Virus record (IMG/VR): IMGVR_UViG_2675903654_000011
DNA length: 9,245 nt
Strand: one strand, 5' to 3'
Origin: a virus
Taxonomy: Duplodnaviria; Heunggongvirae; Uroviricota; Caudoviricetes
Of the stretch, positions 2,192-8,717 are shown in pieces; the first letter of the stretch is position 1, and each line of letters opens with the position of its first letter. A model generated the notes under the pieces. That model had not been told where the DNA came from, did not search any database, and saw nothing but the letters and a program-made list of their open reading frames with translations. Both the position numbers and the translations under genes were made by a program.

Positions 2192-3613
2192 ATGACCACT
2201 ATTACCAAAGAGCGACTGCTGACAATCAAGCAGTGGCGCGAAACATACGGACCTGGTAGCAACGTTGTACTGCCAGCAGAAGAAGCGGAAGAACTGGCAC
2301 GGATTGCACTGGCATCATTGGAAGCAGATCCAGTTAAACGAGTTAACTCAGATCAGATGCACCGAGTCTGCTTAGAAGCTAATCGCTATTTAGATAAATA
2401 TGACGCGATGGCGAAAGAGGTAAATAAGTTGCTTGGACGCATCGCCCCGCCAGCGCCAGTATTTAACGGCGAATACGGTGACGCATATCAGGGCGCTCGT
2501 GAAGACCTGTCCATCTGGAAACGGCGAGCGCTTGAAGCTGATGAGCACGTTCGGCGACTGGAGCAAATCAATGACCACATGGTGAAAGAGGCGCAGGGAG
2601 AATCACGCATGGGCGAGCCTGTAATACGTGAGCCAGCACCGGTAGTGCCTGAAGAAGCAACTCCGGAAAACGTAGAAATGCTCTCTGGCTATGTTTCAAC
2701 GTACAAATTAACCGATAGCGAGCGCGATATTGCTGCCGAAATATGGAACGCCTGCCGCGCCGCCATGCTTCAGTCAGGAAACTTTCGGGAAAACAAGAAT
2801 TCGTCAACCAATAATTTTCGGGAAATCGAGGAAACGTCAACCAACTATCCGGCAATTCCTAGTGAGGTGTTGTCCGCAATCCTGAAGGTTGCCAGGATTC
2901 GTGCCGATTTCGATGATTTTGACGGTGACAGGCGAGGTATCGGTGATTGTCTGGATGAGGCTGAGCAAGAGCTTATCGTTACCATTAACAAATATGCCAG
3001 TCAGTTGGCAGCAGAACCGATAGCGACTAATGACGTTCGAGAGCAGCAGACAGCCGTTCCGCCAGTTCCGGAAATACAGGCTGATGTCGCGCAAGCAATT
3101 GAAAATCTCAAGCAGAAGCTAGTGGAATGTAATCGCTATAACTACTGCGCAGATGCAGTTAAAGGCGTAGAGGATGCCTGCCGTGCTGTTAGCTATAGCC
3201 AAGCCGACAATCAACCAGCATCTGGCAACCAGGCTGCCGAATCCAATCGCGGTAATGAGTGGACCGGCAATCCTGATATTGATAACGCCATCATCATGCT
3301 CGACCGCATAGATACGCTGGAAAATTGCGATGATGACCGTATTGAGGCTGTTAAGGCTGTTTTGCGTAGACTGGCTGGCAACTATCCGGTAACTCCGGAT
3401 GGTTGGATAAGCTGTAGTGAGCGAATGCCGAATACCAAAACAGCCGTTCTTGTTGCCGTGGAGTTTGACAGGAAAGGTGACTGGCGAATGAAATGGGCTA
3501 CTTACATCCCGGGGCATCCTGACGCTAATGATGGGTGGATAATTCCTGGTGCGTCGTGGAAACCGTCACACTGGATGCCGCTACCAGAACCGCCGCAGGA
3601 GGTGCGCCAATGA
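2192..3613 (+). CDS. Prophage protein with C-terminal DUF551-like domain (473 aa), function unknown
   Basis: The C-terminus (DGWISCSERMPNTKTAVLVAV...WKPSHWMPLPEPPQ) matches the recalled W...VLV...HWMPLPEPP signature of DUF551 tails in lambdoid early-region proteins. The central part is acidic and low in complexity. Confidence 0.7.
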   Translation: MTTITKERLLTIKQWRETYGPGSNVVLPAEEAEELARIALASLEADPVKRVNSDQMHRVCLEANRYLDKYDAMAKEVNKLLGRIAPPAPVFNGEYGDAYQGAREDLSIWKRRALEADEHVRRLEQINDHMVKEAQGESRMGEPVIREPAPVVPEEATPENVEMLSGYVSTYKLTDSERDIAAEIWNACRAAMLQSGNFRENKNSSTNNFREIEETSTNYPAIPSEVLSAILKVARIRADFDDFDGDRRGIGDCLDEAEQELIVTINKYASQLAAEPIATNDVREQQTAVPPVPEIQADVAQAIENLKQKLVECNRYNYCADAVKGVEDACRAVSYSQADNQPASGNQAAESNRGNEWTGNPDIDNAIIMLDRIDTLENCDDDRIEAVKAVLRRLAGNYPVTPDGWISCSERMPNTKTAVLVAVEFDRKGDWRMKWATYIPGHPDANDGWIIPGASWKPSHWMPLPEPPQEVRQ

Positions 3614-3693
3614 TCTGGCCTGAAGCCTTTGCAATTACAGGCGTTGCTATAGCTATTGATTTTTTAGTATATGTTATTTGTCGGTGGGGGTAA
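3610..3693 (+). CDS. Candidate small hydrophobic peptide (27 aa: MIWPEAFAITGVAIAIDFLVYVICRWG), not in the ORF track
   Basis: ATG at 3610-3612 overlaps the upstream TGA (ATGA coupling) and follows GGAGGT (3596-3601). The product has a single predicted transmembrane helix. Confidence 0.35.
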   Translation: MIWPEAFAITGVAIAIDFLVYVICRWG

Positions 3694-3728
3694 AAACGTT
3701 CGCCGGGATTCACACCAAAGGAGGGAAT

Positions 3729-3833
3729 ATGTCGGATGATATTTCACTGGCAATGGAAGGTGCGCTGGCTGTTATTGCTGTTGTGGGCGTTTACTGCCTG
3801 GTTGTGTTTTTGATGGATCGACTAGGGAACTGA
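3729..3833 (+). CDS. Candidate small membrane peptide (34 aa: MSDDISLAMEGALAVIAVVGVYCLVVFLMDRLGN), not in the ORF track
   Basis: Strong Shine-Dalgarno AAGGAGGG (3717-3724) lies 4 nt before the ATG. An acidic N-terminus is followed by one hydrophobic helix. A 22-bp perfect palindrome lies just downstream. Confidence 0.45.
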   Translation: MSDDISLAMEGALAVIAVVGVYCLVVFLMDRLGN

Positions 3834-3841
3834 ATTCATTA

Positions 3842-3863
3842 CGATATGGGAATTCCCATATCG
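3842..3863. repeat. 22-bp perfect palindrome CGATATGGGAATTCCCATATCG
   Basis: Read directly from the sequence: the segment equals its own reverse complement. It sits between the small-peptide ORF and the hok leader. Confidence 0.9.
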
Positions 3864-4021
3864 GGTAAAAACGGTTTGCGGTAAAGCGAGAGTTAAGTAG
3901 AATTGCTGCGGGTGCTTGAGGCTATCTGCCTCGGGCATGCCACCGTAAGGCAGACAGAGAAAAGCCCCAGTTAACATTACGCGTCCGGCAAGACGCTTAA
4001 CATTAATCTGAGGCCATATCT

Positions 4022-4234
4022 ATGCTCTACACACGTAGGTTAGCCTCTTACGTGCCGAAAGGCAAGGAGAAGCAGGCTATGAAGCAGCAAAAGGCGATGT
4101 TAATCGCCCTGATCGTCATCTGTTTAACCGTCATAGTGACGGCACTGGTAACGAGGAAAGACCTCTGCGAGGTACGAATCCGAACCGGTCAGACGGAGGT
4201 CGCTGTCTTCGTAGACTACGAATCTGAGAAGTAA
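4022..4234 (+). CDS. mok: mok-like reading frame (in-frame 19-codon N-terminal extension of hok)
   Basis: ATG at 4022 follows GAGG (4011-4014) and reads in frame into hok. The 70-aa versus 51-aa pair matches the chromosomal mokC/hokC arrangement, where both share a stop codon. Confidence 0.5.
   Translation: MLYTRRLASYVPKGKEKQAMKQQKAMLIALIVICLTVIVTALVTRKDLCEVRIRTGQTEVAVFVDYESEK
4079..4234 (+). CDS. hok: Hok/Gef-family type I toxin (51 aa), closest to HokD/HokC as recalled
   Basis: The product MKQQKAMLIALIVICLTVIVTALVTRKDLCEVRIRTGQTEVAVFVDYESEK is near-identical to the recalled HokD (RelF) sequence. AAGGAG lies upstream, and a structured 3' region with a terminator follows. Confidence 0.85.
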   Translation: MKQQKAMLIALIVICLTVIVTALVTRKDLCEVRIRTGQTEVAVFVDYESEK

Positions 4235-4301
4235 GAGACCAGGCGGGGGAGTAATCTCCCGCCACCTCTGATGTGTCAGGCATCCTCAACGCACCCGCAC
4301 T

Positions 4302-4326
4302 AAACCCGCTTCGGCGGGTTTTTTGT
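4302..4326 (+). terminator. Rho-independent terminator of the hok transcript
   Basis: Stem CCCGC (4305-4309), loop TTCG, stem GCGGG (4314-4318), then a T-run (4319-4324). Confidence 0.7.
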
Positions 4327-4509
4327 TGCGTGCTGAATGCGCAGGGTGAAAAATAACCATATATTTGATTATATACACAACAAAAAATAAAAGTCATTGT
4401 ACCTGCACATTAAATAATCAAATATACAGCGTGAAATAAATATTTTTCAGATTAATATTTTTGTCTCTATGTGGATATAACCGTTTGTACTTATAAACTC
4501 GGAGGCATC

Positions 4510-6234: not shown

Positions 6235-6260
6235 CTCAATCTGTTATCCGGGGCTATATT
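6231..6260 (+). promoter_or_regulatory. PR'-like late promoter (-35 TTGACT, 18-bp spacer, -10 TATATT)
   Basis: TTGACT at 6231-6236 overlaps the Q-like stop codon; TATATT at 6255-6260. The layout parallels lambda PR' (TTGACT/TAAATT) lying immediately after Q. Confidence 0.5.
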
Positions 6261-6322
6261 CCTCACGCGCCAGCAAAATCTGGCGTCGGGATTAGGAACC
6301 CCGGATAGAGACCGCGACAGAC

Positions 6323-6345
6323 ACACGCCGCGAGCGTGTTTTTTA
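6323..6345 (+). terminator. tR'-like rho-independent terminator
   Basis: ACACGC (6323-6328), loop CGCGA, GCGTGT (6334-6339), then TTTTTT (6340-6345). Confidence 0.65.
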
Positions 6346-6507
6346 TTGTCGTATGCACGCGCACATCTGAATTATGGTGGGGCGTATGGGGGAGCTGAAA
6401 AGCTCGCCGGTTGGTTTCCCGGTAGTTCCTAACCCTGTACGTCTCACCACCCGATGATTAGGAACCTGACGGTGGTGATGGTTTAGAAACCACCAGAGGG
6501 CGTCATT

Positions 6508-7089
6508 ATGACAACTCAAATTTCTGTTGAAACTCTCTCCCCGATCACCCATAACCAGATTCCTGTTATTACCACCGAACTTTTGGCGCAGTTGTACGGT
6601 GCTGGAGTTAAGAACATTCAAAATAACTACGCCAGAAATGCTGAGCGCTTTATTGAAGGAAAGCATTTTTTCAAAGTGGCTGGCGATGCCCTGAAAAATT
6701 TGCGGGTAGCTTTAAACTACTCACAAAATTTGCAACCATCTTTAAGAGGGTTACAAATTTCCCCGAAAGCCCGCTCCCTCATCCTCTGGACAGAACGCGG
6801 AGCAGCCCGTCATGCCAAAATGCTGGAAACCGATCAGGCGTGGGATGTGTTCGAAAAGCTGGAAGACTGCTATTTCAGACAAAAGGATCCGTCAGCGCCA
6901 GTTTCATGCCAGAAAAGTTACGACACGCGAGTTCTCTGTTATCAGAGAGGCGGTGTCACTGTTTCCACAATTCAGTTACGGGATGATGATATTGTTATTT
7001 CCCTTGAGTCATGGCTGGAACTGGCGAGAGCCAATGGTTGGTTTGTTGTTCGCAGAGATAAACTGGTGGAAAGGTTGATGCAGCTTTAA
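6508..7089 (+). CDS. ORF6N / KilA-N-like domain protein, putative antirepressor-type regulator (193 aa)
   Basis: ATG at 6508 follows AGAGGG. The N-terminal segment ITTELLAQLYGAGVKNIQNNYARNAERFIEGKHFFKV resembles the ORF6N DNA-binding domain of phage antirepressors. An intrinsic terminator follows about 100 bp downstream. Confidence 0.55.
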   Translation: MTTQISVETLSPITHNQIPVITTELLAQLYGAGVKNIQNNYARNAERFIEGKHFFKVAGDALKNLRVALNYSQNLQPSLRGLQISPKARSLILWTERGAARHAKMLETDQAWDVFEKLEDCYFRQKDPSAPVSCQKSYDTRVLCYQRGGVTVSTIQLRDDDIVISLESWLELARANGWFVVRRDKLVERLMQL

Positions 7090-8407: not shown

Positions 8408-8483
8408 GGCCCTTTAGCTCAGTGGTGAGAGCGAGCGACTCATAATCGCCAGGTCGCTGGTTCAAATCCAGCAAGGGCCACCA
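8408..8483 (+). tRNA. tRNA with CAU anticodon, ileX/ileZ-like (tRNA-Ile2 if lysidine-modified, otherwise Met)
   Basis: Acceptor GGCCCTT/AAGGGCC, D-stem GCTC/GAGC, anticodon loop CTCATAA, T-loop TTCAAAT, discriminator A, encoded CCA. Closely resembles recalled E. coli ileX. Confidence 0.85.
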
Positions 8484-8484
8484 A

Positions 8485-8561
8485 CCGCCACTAGCTCATC
8501 AGGAAAGAGCGTCAACCCTTTAAGTTGAGTGTGCGAGGTTCGAGTCCCCGGTGGCGGTCCA
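8485..8561 (+). tRNA. tRNA-like gene, isotype uncertain (positional anticodon UUU with a non-canonical C33)
   Basis: Acceptor CCGCCAC/GTGGCGG, D-stem GCTC/GAGC, anticodon stem TCAAC/GTTGA with loop CCTTTAA, T-loop TTCGAGT, encoded CCA. There is one A.C mismatch in the T-stem. It lies 1 nt after the previous tRNA. Confidence 0.6.
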
Positions 8562-8563
8562 GT

Positions 8564-8639
<76 letters not shown>

Positions 8640-8642
8640 TAT

Positions 8643-8717
<75 letters not shown>

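What the first reader, a model, noticed from the sequence alone, without database searches (positions are those of the whole stretch)
3870..4330. Complete hok/mok type I toxin-antitoxin locus inside the prophage
A HokD-like 51-aa toxin has an in-frame 19-codon upstream extension (mok-like, as in mokC/hokC), a structured GC-rich 3' region (GGCGGGGGAGTAATCTCCCGCC) and a strong terminator. A Sok-type antisense RNA is expected on the minus strand overlapping the mok start (roughly 3970-4060). A candidate minus-strand promoter (TTGCCT-17 bp-TAACCT, complement of about 4038-4066) is visible but weak, so no sok feature is called. The locus may stabilise the defective prophage or provide phage exclusion.
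Basis: partly seen in the sequence, partly recalled or inferred. Interest (0 to 1): 0.45.

Follow-up and report, generated by a model that had tools for sequence, protein, structure and literature searches.

The report
Intact hok/mok/sok toxin-antitoxin cassette
This is an ordinary, apparently intact copy of the well-known hok/sok RNA-controlled killer-gene cassette, 96% identical over 436 nt to the experimentally studied hokW-sokW of Shiga-toxin phage 933W/Sp5, sitting in a lambda-like prophage of E. coli.

Summary
Window 3876-4327 holds a complete hok/mok/sok type I toxin-antitoxin cassette.

- **Toxin:** the 51-aa Hok (4079-4234) matches Pfam HOK_GEF (E 4e-23). It is 100% identical in protein to HokW of phage 933W/Sp5, which has been shown to be toxic.
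- **mok:** the in-frame ATG at 4022 corresponds to mokW and to K-12 mokC.
- **Leader:** it matches Rfam RF01794 at 112.6 bits.
- **mRNA folding:** the 5' end (tac) pairs with a 3' element (fbi, 4284-4296) in the predicted fold, which has a z-score of -8.7.
- **sok promoter:** Mutating the sokW -10 abolished antitoxin activity (Takada et al. 2021).

By homology, Sok is a ~71-nt RNA from 4030 to 3960 on the minus strand.

K-12 hokD is the rearranged relic of this cassette type. Homologs occur in 4725 of 5426 complete E. coli genomes, and 23 records are at least 99% identical. The finding is therefore correct but already known.

Side observations are a likely TadA Tyr47-to-Cys editing site, allelic variation of the Sok 5' tail, and a 22-nt palindrome upstream.

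The parts
3876..3903 (+). Candidate hok promoter: -35 TTGCGG (3876-3881), 16-nt spacer, -10 TAGAAT (3898-3903)
   Evidence: Read from the sequence. The -10 position keeps the pattern TAnnnT in most of the 27 aligned loci. Identity to 933W starts at about 3866 and includes both hexamers. The transcription start is inferred, not mapped.
3910..4327 (+). Full-length hok mRNA (inferred 5' end G3910, 3' end at the intrinsic terminator), about 415 nt
   Evidence: The Rfam sok/hok-leader model starts at 3910. The invariant block GGGTGCTTGAGGCT starts there in all 24 intact loci. MFE -175.7 kcal/mol, z = -8.7.
3910..3921 (+). tac (translational activator) element at the mRNA 5' end
   Evidence: Pairs with 4284-4296 in the MFE as 6+6 bp. 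Invariant in 24 of 24 loci; helix 98.3% paired. Present in 97 of 97 parsed IMG/VR copies.
3912..3938 (+). 5' hairpin of the nascent transcript (tac paired with the sequence just downstream), corresponding to the metastable hairpin described for R1 hok
   Evidence: 11-bp helix 3912-3922:3928-3938 in folds of 3910-3960 and 3910-4020. The concept is described in PMC9841398.
3964..3970 (+). ucb (anti-SD) element that sequesters the mok Shine-Dalgarno in the full-length RNA
   Evidence: GCC.CAG pairs with CUG.GGC at 4008-4014 in the MFE. Helix 4 is 92% paired, with 4 pairs changed on both sides.
4010..4013 (+). mok Shine-Dalgarno GAGG, 8 nt upstream of the mok ATG
   Evidence: Sequence. CTGAGGC is invariant in the hokD/W group.
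4022..4234 (+). mok reading frame, here in frame with hok (70 aa)
   Evidence: Same geometry as the annotated mokW and K-12 mokC. The frame varies among relatives: 57, 58 or 56 nt before the hok ATG.
4043..4047 (+). dcb element (GCCUC), which can pair with the mok SD region in the processed mRNA
   Evidence: This pairing is part of the Rfam consensus structure that the window matches. Forcing tac/ucb plus SD/dcb costs +16.6 kcal/mol in the full-length RNA but only +5 to +6 in the 3'-truncated RNA. The open form is not the MFE.
4079..4234 (+). hok toxin gene, 51 aa, preceded by SD GGAG (4066-4069)
   Evidence: Pfam PF01848, 81 bits. Protein 100% identical to HokW and 92% to K-12 HokD. RefSeq annotates it as WP_000813258.1, Hok/Gef family protein.
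4216..4222 (+). CUACGAA loop containing hok codon 47 (UAC, Tyr). Candidate TadA A-to-I editing site; A4218 would recode Tyr47 to Cys
   Evidence: 7-nt loop closed by helices 4212-4215:4223-4226 and 4207-4210:4228-4231. The stem shows compensatory changes, helix 19. Editing of the equivalent Tyr codon is reported for hokC/D/E. Not tested for this locus.
4242..4263 (+). GC-rich 3' hairpin, corresponding to the last stem-loop of the processed (truncated) hok mRNA that blocks 3' exonucleases
   Evidence: 9-bp helix. 95.5% paired, with 2 pairs changed on both sides across 24 loci (helix 20). The role is inferred from R1 mutagenesis.
4284..4296 (+). fbi (fold-back inhibitory) element complementary to tac
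   Evidence: CCUCAA-C-GCACCC pairs with GGGUGC/UUGAGG. Nearly invariant, and its changes keep pairing by G-C to G-U. Present in 92 of 97 IMG/VR copies. Homology to 933W ends just after it, at about 4301.
4302..4327 (+). Intrinsic terminator (8-bp stem, 4-nt loop, T run)
   Evidence: Shared with K-12 hokD and with 69 of 120 IMG/VR copies.
3960..4030 (-). sok antitoxin RNA, about 71 nt: 15-nt single-stranded 5' tail, long hairpin, then UUUU
   Evidence: Mapped from the annotated sokW, which is 71 nt with its 5' end 8 nt inside mokW, and from K-12 sokC, which has the same geometry. Fold -28.6 kcal/mol for the 71-mer. The 77-mer gives z = -5.4. It differs from SokW at 6 positions, all within nt 3-16. 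The transcript has not been observed in this strain.
4037..4065 (-). sok promoter: -35 TTGCCT (4065-4060), 17-nt spacer, -10 TAACCT (4042-4037)
   Evidence: Identical to 933W/Sp5. The -10 is the element mutated in the 'pro-less' construct of Takada et al.. In IMG/VR copies the -10 is TAACCT in 82 and TAATCT in 15; the -35 is TTGCCT in 82 and TTGACC in 15; the spacer is 17 nt in 97 of 97.

Best explanation
Window 3876-4327 is an intact hok/mok/sok type I toxin-antitoxin cassette. It is an allele of hokW/mokW/sokW of Stx phage 933W/Sp5 and the un-rearranged form of the K-12 hokD locus.

**Plus strand (inferred by homology with the R1 hok and hokW systems).**
- A promoter (-10 TAGAAT) makes a stable mRNA of about 415 nt from G3910 to the terminator at 4302-4327.
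- In the full-length RNA the 5' tac element (3910-3921) pairs with the 3' fbi element (4284-4296).
- The mok Shine-Dalgarno (4010-4013) is buried by the upstream ucb box (3964-3970), so nothing is translated.
- Slow 3' trimming back to the GC hairpin (4242-4263) removes fbi. The leader can then refold into tac/ucb and SD/dcb pairings.
- Ribosomes start at the mok ATG (4022). Their passage opens the hok start (4079). Here the two ORFs share a frame.
- The product is a 51-aa (or N-terminally extended 70-aa) inner-membrane peptide that collapses membrane potential.
- Tyr47 may be recoded to Cys by TadA editing, which would supply the second cysteine.

**Minus strand.**
- The promoter TTGCCT-17-TAACCT drives an unstable Sok RNA of about 71 nt (4030 to 3960).
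- Its 5' tail pairs with the mok start region, blocking translation and marking the duplex for RNase III.

**Trigger.** When sok transcription stops, Sok decays first and the stored hok mRNA is translated. In Sp5 this happens on prophage induction.

**What is shown and what is inferred.** Shown here: the presence, integrity and conservation of every element, and identity of the toxin and the sok promoter to an experimentally validated system. Inferred: transcription, processing and toxicity in this strain, and the biological role.
For: - **Toxin:** Pfam HOK_GEF E 4e-23 and PHROG 'MokW-like host killing' E 1e-32.
- **Leader RNA:** Rfam RF01794, 112.6 bits over the whole 157-position model.
- **Closest relative:** 95.9% DNA identity over 3866-4301 to 933W, where mokW, hokW and sokW are annotated. 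Hok protein is 100% identical to HokW. Window 4036-4241, including both sok promoter hexamers, is identical to 933W.
- **Experiments on hokW-sokW:** HokW is toxic from pBAD24. sokW expressed from its own promoter neutralises it. The -10 mutant loses protection and is rescued in trans. Both RNAs were seen on northern blots.
- **mRNA fold:** z = -8.7, with the tac/fbi pairing predicted.
- **Conservation across 24 loci from 10 or more species:** 85.8% of structure cells are paired against 37-44% in slid controls. tac/fbi is 98% paired. Compensatory changes occur in the ucb/SD/Sok hairpin and in the 3' hairpin.
- **IMG/VR sample:** tac, the mok ATG, the sok hexamers and the 17-nt spacer are conserved in 97 phage contigs.
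- **Sok geometry:** it matches the annotated sokC, sokB and sokW.
Against: - No expression data exist for this strain.
- The sok promoter is weak by consensus, at 4/6 and 3/6 hexamer matches, and the generic scan missed it.
- The thermodynamic model does not make the translatable 'open' leader the minimum-energy fold of the truncated RNA. It lies 5-6 kcal/mol above the MFE.
- tac never varies, so the tac/fbi helix has no double compensatory changes.
- Chromosomal hok loci tested by Pedersen and Gerdes did not mediate post-segregational killing, as cited.
- Six bases of the Sok tail and mok start differ from the validated sokW. Because Sok is cis-encoded, complementarity to its own mRNA is kept automatically.
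Confidence: 0.9

Rival explanations
1. The cassette is a silent relic, like the K-12 hokA, hokC, hokD and hokE loci. It looks complete but is not expressed or not toxic in its host, and persists only by hitch-hiking in the prophage.
For: K-12 chromosomal hok loci are inactivated by IS elements or rearrangement. Chromosomal loci tested did not give post-segregational killing. Some relatives in the sample are visibly broken: L012 has a mutated 5' end, L035 is relBE-type, and one IMG/VR copy has a truncated Hok.
Against: No IS, frameshift or deletion is present here. Every regulatory element is present. The toxin and the sok promoter are identical to the functional hokW-sokW. Regulatory elements are far more conserved than neighbouring loops: pairwise difference is 0.00-0.08 against 0.24-0.38. 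That pattern argues for ongoing selection.
Confidence: 0.07
2. Functional role A, from the nearest relative: the cassette is a lysis helper. On prophage induction Sok disappears, Hok is made before holin and endolysin, and lysis and phage release are accelerated.
For: For hokW-sokW in Sp5, sokW RNA vanished after mitomycin C and HokW appeared about 1 h before endolysin. Deleting the locus delayed growth arrest by about 40 min and halved the released phage.
Against: This rests on a single study with a two-fold effect. In 933W the locus sits at the far right end of the phage genome, whereas here it is between the DUF551 gene and ninB. This prophage appears to have a truncated holin gene and an IS at the lysis module, so a role in phage release may be moot in this host.
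Confidence: 0.35
3. Functional role B, the reader's suggestion: the cassette acts as an addiction or stabilisation module for the prophage, or as an abortive-infection defence against other phages.
For: R1 hok/sok mediates post-segregational killing and reduces T4 plating, as cited. hok genes are about four-fold enriched in prophages. The cassette moves as a unit with different flanks in different phages and plasmids.
Against: There is no direct test for any prophage hok. Chromosomal hok loci failed post-segregational killing tests, and hok is not enriched next to defence systems. Deleting hokW-sokW did not affect growth under normal conditions.
Confidence: 0.3
4. The 70-aa ORF (4022-4234) is the real and only gene product, a longer Hok, and there is no separate mok/hok coupling.
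For: mok and hok share a frame here, as in mokC and mokW.
Against: Close relatives with near-identical hok have the upstream ATG in the +1 frame (68 aa, unrelated sequence) or the +2 frame (19 aa, stop overlapping the hok ATG). The extension is therefore not conserved as protein. hok has its own SD (GGAG) and an invariant ATG. HokW alone, at 51 aa, is toxic.
Confidence: 0.05

Closest known systems
hokW / mokW / sokW of Stx2 phage 933W (AF125520.1), identical locus in Sakai prophage Sp5 (Takada et al. 2021, PMC8621323)
   Same: - 95.9% DNA identity over window 3866-4301.
- Identical Hok protein.
- Identical hok promoter, tac, Sok hairpin, sok -35 and -10, hok SD and fbi, and the 3' hairpin apart from one base at its foot.
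- mok in frame at 70 aa, and Sok of 71 nt with the same geometry.
   Different: - Six substitutions in the Sok 5' tail and mok start (4015-4033), and a different loop in the first leader hairpin (3940-3955).
- Homology ends after fbi. The window has the hokD-type intrinsic terminator, which 933W lacks.
- Location differs: between the DUF551 gene and ninB here, at the right end of the genome in 933W.
hokD (relF) of the Qin cryptic prophage, E. coli K-12
   Same: 92% Hok identity. The 3' UTR, fbi and terminator are the same, and the downstream neighbour (rem-like gene) is the same.
   Different: In K-12, homology starts only at the hok SD (about window 4063). The leader, mok start, sok and the hok promoter are replaced by relBE. 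The window has the complete upstream half.
hokC/mokC/sokC (gef) of E. coli K-12
   Same: mok is in frame with hok, and sokC starts 8 nt inside mokC. The leader is homologous, with an identical tac. Hok identity is 80%.
   Different: - K-12 hokC is cut by IS186 in its 3' UTR.
- The hokC-type Sok hairpin lacks the 16-18 nt that extend the hairpin in all hokD/W-type loci.
- The sok hexamers differ (TTGACC / CACTCT).
hok/mok/sok of plasmid R1 (parB), the paradigm system
   Same: Same architecture and regulatory logic: tac/fbi, ucb/dcb, mok-coupled translation and antisense Sok. The sok promoter sits at the homologous position; the R1 sequence used for this comparison is recalled from memory.
   Different: Only 44% Hok identity is reported for HokW against R1 Hok. 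R1 mok is in a different frame from hok (my own knowledge). R1 is plasmid-borne, with demonstrated post-segregational killing.

Membership tests
[quoted passage not shown] | Small (about 50 aa) hydrophobic Hok/Gef peptide with one transmembrane helix and the conserved L-C-E motif | tested here: met
   PF01848, 81.1 bits against a cutoff of 22. LCE at residues 29-31, and 15 invariant columns shared with HokB, HokC, HokD and HokW.
[quoted passage not shown] | Second C-terminal cysteine, either DNA-encoded or supplied by an editable UAC(Tyr)-GAA codon pair | tested here: met
   Codons 47-48 are TAC GAA, in a predicted CUACGAA loop. Editing itself cannot be tested here.
[quoted passage not shown] | Upstream overlapping mok reading frame with its own SD, whose translation leads ribosomes over the hok start | tested here: met
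   GAGG (4010-4013) and ATG 4022. The ATG position is conserved across relatives in any of the three frames. Translational coupling itself was not tested.
[quoted passage not shown] | Cis-encoded antisense sok gene with a promoter inside the mok/hok leader and an RNA overlapping the mok start | tested here: met
   The promoter is identical to the mutationally validated sokW promoter. The predicted RNA has a 5' tail plus a terminator-like hairpin. The geometry matches the annotated sokC, sokB and sokW. The transcript has not been observed in this strain.
[quoted passage not shown] | Long-range tac (5' end) / fbi (3' end) pairing that closes the full-length mRNA | tested here: met
   12 bp in the MFE. 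98.3% of cells are paired across 24 loci, with only one-sided changes because tac is invariant.
[quoted passage not shown] | ucb/mok-SD sequestration, with alternative tac/ucb and SD/dcb pairings in the processed mRNA | tested here: inconclusive
   The closed form is predicted and supported by 4 compensatory pairs. The open form fits the Rfam consensus. It is not the MFE of the truncated RNA: the penalty falls from 16.6 to 5-6 kcal/mol on truncation.
[quoted passage not shown] | Stable 3' stem-loop that ends the processed mRNA | tested here: met
   9-bp GC hairpin at 4242-4263. 95.5% paired, with 2 compensatory pairs.
[quoted passage not shown] | Toxicity of Hok and neutralisation by Sok | not testable with these tools
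   Inferred from 100% protein identity to HokW and identity of the promoter and hairpin to sokW, both tested by Takada et al..
hokW-sokW allele group (933W/Sp5) | Same Sok recognition tail, so that Sok and hok of the two loci would cross-neutralise | tested here: not met
   Six of the first 16 Sok nucleotides differ. The window carries tail allele CATATCTATGCTCTACACACGT and 933W carries TCAATCCATGCTGAACACATGT. Whether this prevents cross-talk is untested.

The most novel reading that the evidence does not exclude
The 16-22 nt around the mok start, which is also the single-stranded 5' tail of Sok, may behave as a specificity cassette. Among otherwise near-identical prophage hokD/W-type loci it exists in at least 20 alleles, while the flanking SD, the Sok hairpin and the sok promoter stay invariant. 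If this reflects diversifying selection, each prophage would keep a private toxin-antidote pair. Co-resident prophages could not silence one another's Hok, much like immunity groups. The window would carry the commonest allele.
Probability: 0.3. Interest if true: 0.4.

Novelty: already known. Interest (0 to 1): 0.12.

Why it matters
The practical value is mainly in annotation. RefSeq labels only the 51-aa 'Hok/Gef family protein' here and omits mok, sok and the mRNA elements. They can be placed with confidence by transfer from hokW-sokW. The locus also shows what K-12 hokD looked like before relBE replaced its upstream half. Biologically it adds nothing new: hok cassettes in lambdoid prophages are described, catalogued and, for the nearest relative, characterised experimentally. 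The allelic variation of the Sok tail and the predicted editing site may be worth a population-level look, but this window is not special for either.

Tried and rejected
- **Rfam 'sok' hit as evidence for the antisense RNA.** Rejected. The hit is on the plus strand and runs from the mRNA 5' end to the hok ATG, so it models the hok leader.
- **Generic sigma-70 scan for the sok promoter.** It did not report the site. The promoter call rests on homology and a published mutant instead.
- **MFE folding of 3'-truncated mRNAs to show the translatable 'open' leader.** The MFE keeps the 5' metastable hairpin and the ucb/SD hairpin. Only a reduced energy penalty for the open form could be shown.
- **Double compensatory changes in tac/fbi.** None exist, because tac is invariant.
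- **Do co-resident copies always carry different Sok tails?** Five of six genomes do and one does not. The sample is too small and contigs may be duplicated.
- **Is the tail uniquely hypervariable?** It is the most variable 16-nt window (0.38), but the 3' hairpin region comes close at 0.34-0.37. Relaxed constraint is an adequate explanation.
- **YUNR U-turn motif in the Sok target loop.** Checked by eye only. It is present in 933W (CUGA) but I could not find one in the window's loop (CUCUACACA). I gave this no weight.
- **NCBIfam.** Scores fall below the curated cutoffs for the Hok subfamily and HokA models, so nothing was taken from it.
- **Small ORFs upstream** (3729-3833 and 3535-3693): no Pfam or PHROG match.

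Full report
**What is in the sequence.**
- The plus strand of 3870-4330 carries a 51-codon ORF (4079-4234) preceded by GGAG. An ATG 57 nt upstream (4022) lies in the same frame and is preceded by GAGG.
- The short ORF matches Pfam HOK_GEF (81 bits, E 4e-23) and PHROG 251 'MokW-like host killing' (E 1e-32).
- Rfam RF01794 ('sok') matches 3910-4084 over its full length at 112.6 bits (gathering score 59). This hit is on the plus strand and ends at the hok ATG. It therefore describes the hok mRNA leader that contains the Sok target, not the antisense RNA itself.
- An intrinsic terminator lies at 4302-4327.

**Where the window comes from.**
- The window matches E. coli chromosome NZ_CP148401.1 at 99.99-100% identity in two blocks, with one 295-nt gap.
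- The RefSeq annotation and PHROG hits give this gene order: ydaT/ydaV-type replication genes, a DUF551 gene, hok, a rem-like gene, ninB (DUF1367), DUF1364, DUF1133, an isrK/C4 antisense RNA region with an ORF6N antirepressor-like gene, four tRNAs, and a holin gene.
- This is a lambdoid prophage.
- Only the 51-aa 'Hok/Gef family protein' is annotated at the locus.

**Closest relatives.**
- A 491-nt query around the locus finds matches in 4725 of 5426 complete E. coli genomes, with a median of 2 places per genome and up to 10. Twenty-three records are at least 99% identical.
- In the phage collection the best-annotated hit is Stx2 phage 933W: 95.9% identity over window 3866-4301, where mokW, hokW and the 71-nt sokW are annotated.
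- The Hok protein is identical to HokW and 92% identical to K-12 HokD.
- A base-by-base alignment shows identity to 933W through the hok promoter, the 5' end, the Sok hairpin, both sok promoter hexamers, the hok SD and fbi. The hok ORF has one synonymous change, and there is one substitution (4242) at the base of the 3' hairpin.
- Differences cluster in two places: the loop of the first leader hairpin (3940-3955), and 4015-4033 around the mok start.
- K-12 hokD is homologous only from the hok SD onward. Its upstream half is replaced by relBE.
- K-12 hokC shares the leader but is cut by IS186.

**The sok gene.**
Its true coordinates are the complement of 4060-4065 and 4037-4042.
- It is weak by consensus, and the generic scan missed it.
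- It is nonetheless the sokW promoter. Takada et al. (PMC8621323) inactivated sokW with primers that change TAGGTTAG to CCGGCTCG, which alters TAACCT to GAGCCG on the minus strand. That construct became toxic and was rescued by sokW in trans. They also saw sokW RNA on northern blots.
- Among 97 phage contigs carrying this cassette type, the -10 is TAACCT (82) or TAATCT (15), the -35 is TTGCCT (82) or TTGACC (15), and the spacer is always 17 nt.
- The annotated sokW, sokC and sokB each start 8-10 nt inside their mok.
- Transferring that geometry puts Sok at 4030 to 3960. The predicted RNA has a 15-nt unpaired 5' tail, a long hairpin and a UUUU tail.

**The mRNA switch.**
- The inferred full-length transcript (3910-4327) folds far better than shuffled controls (z = -8.7).
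- The MFE contains the long-range tac/fbi pairing, 3910-3921 with 4284-4296. It also buries the mok SD by pairing it with 3964-3970.
- Across 24 intact loci from Escherichia, Shigella, Kluyvera, Pseudocitrobacter and others, 85.8% of structure cells are paired, against 37-44% when partners are slid.
- tac/fbi is 98% paired. The ucb/SD/Sok hairpin has four pairs changed on both sides, and the 3' hairpin has two.
- A nascent-transcript hairpin (3912-3922 with 3928-3938) corresponds to the metastable hairpin described for R1.
- The translatable open form (tac/ucb plus SD/dcb) fits the Rfam consensus, but it is not the MFE of 3'-truncated RNAs. Truncation lowers its energy penalty from 16.6 to 5-6 kcal/mol. 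This step is therefore consistent with the model but not demonstrated.

**The in-frame mok.**
- In-frame mok also occurs in mokC and mokW.
- Close relatives place the same ATG 57, 58 or 56 nt before hok. These give a 70-aa fusion, a 68-aa product in another frame, or a 19-aa peptide whose stop overlaps the hok ATG.
- What is conserved is an upstream start with its SD, not a Mok protein.

**Function.**
- Everything above supports an intact, R1-type regulated killer cassette.
- Its role in a prophage is not settled.
- The only direct data come from hokW-sokW. Sok disappears on induction, HokW appears about an hour before endolysin, and deletion delays lysis and halves phage yield.
Chromosomal hok loci failed post-segregational killing tests, and hok is not enriched near defence systems, although it is enriched in prophages.
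- In this window the holin gene is truncated and an IS1203 end follows it. The prophage is therefore probably defective, and a lysis-helper role may no longer apply.

**Verdict.** The system is already known: named, annotated in 933W, characterised in Sp5, and catalogued at scale. Interest is low.

Noticed in passing
window 4216-4222 (A4218): hok codon 47 is UAC (Tyr) followed by GAA. It sits in a predicted 7-nt loop, CUACGAA, which from my own knowledge is the same heptamer as the tRNA-Arg(ACG) anticodon loop that TadA edits. This fits the reported A-to-I Tyr-to-Cys recoding of hokC, hokD and hokE, which would supply the second cysteine for the disulfide bond.
   Followed up: partly
window 4015-4033: The Sok 5' tail and mok start form the most variable 16-nt window of the transcript among hokD/W-type cassettes: pairwise difference 0.38 against 0.10 overall. 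There are 20 alleles in 97 phage contigs, and the window's allele is the commonest (20 of 97). Co-resident copies differ in 5 of 6 genomes. This could be a specificity determinant or merely an unconstrained loop.
   Followed up: partly
window 3842-3863: A perfect 22-nt palindrome, CGATATGGGAATTCCCATATCG, lies immediately upstream of the hok promoter -35, with no T run after it. It is absent from 933W and present upstream of the cassette in 12 of 120 IMG/VR hits. Its function is unknown; it could be a hairpin insulator or a protein-binding site.
   Followed up: partly
window 3688-3873: An 11-nt direct repeat, GGGTAAAAACG (at 3688 and 3863), brackets a segment of about 175 nt. The segment carries a 34-aa hydrophobic ORF (3729-3833, with a strong SD, no family match) and the palindrome. 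In 933W the hok cassette follows directly after the ORF that ends at the first repeat, so this looks like a small insertion.
   Followed up: partly
window 3981-3996: All hokD/W-type loci carry 16-18 extra nucleotides (GCGTCCGGCAAGACGC) that lengthen the Sok and target hairpin relative to hokC-type loci and the Rfam consensus. This gives a 71-nt Sok rather than about 59 nt.
   Followed up: partly
window 6254-6454 and 6508-7089: Rfam hits to c4-a1b1 (6254-6307), isrK (6267-6344) and C4 antisense RNA (6370-6454) lie just upstream of an ORF6N-domain antirepressor-like gene. This resembles a P1/P7 immI-like or Gifsy-1 isrK-type antisense-controlled antirepressor module.
   Followed up: no
window 8408-8717: Four tandem tRNA genes (anticodons CAT, TTT, TGT and TCC) lie upstream of the lysis genes. 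RefSeq labels the CAT one tRNA-Ile.
   Followed up: no
window 9121/9122 to 9245: Relative to the otherwise identical record NZ_CP148401.1, 295 nt are missing at this junction. The deletion truncates the class II holin gene and removes a DUF1327 remnant. The last 124 nt match the stretch of the record that runs into the IS1203 transposase gene. This suggests a decayed lysis module.
   Followed up: partly
window 2192-3613: This 473-aa ORF has a C-terminal DUF551 domain and matches many different PHROGs along its length. PGAP annotates the same stretch in the matching genome as three DUF551 fragments or pseudogenes, so it looks like a mosaic or fused gene.
   Followed up: no
window 3910-4084: The Rfam family named 'sok' (RF01794) matches the sense strand of the hok leader. 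Annotation pipelines that take the name at face value would place sok on the wrong strand and at the wrong length.
   Followed up: yes
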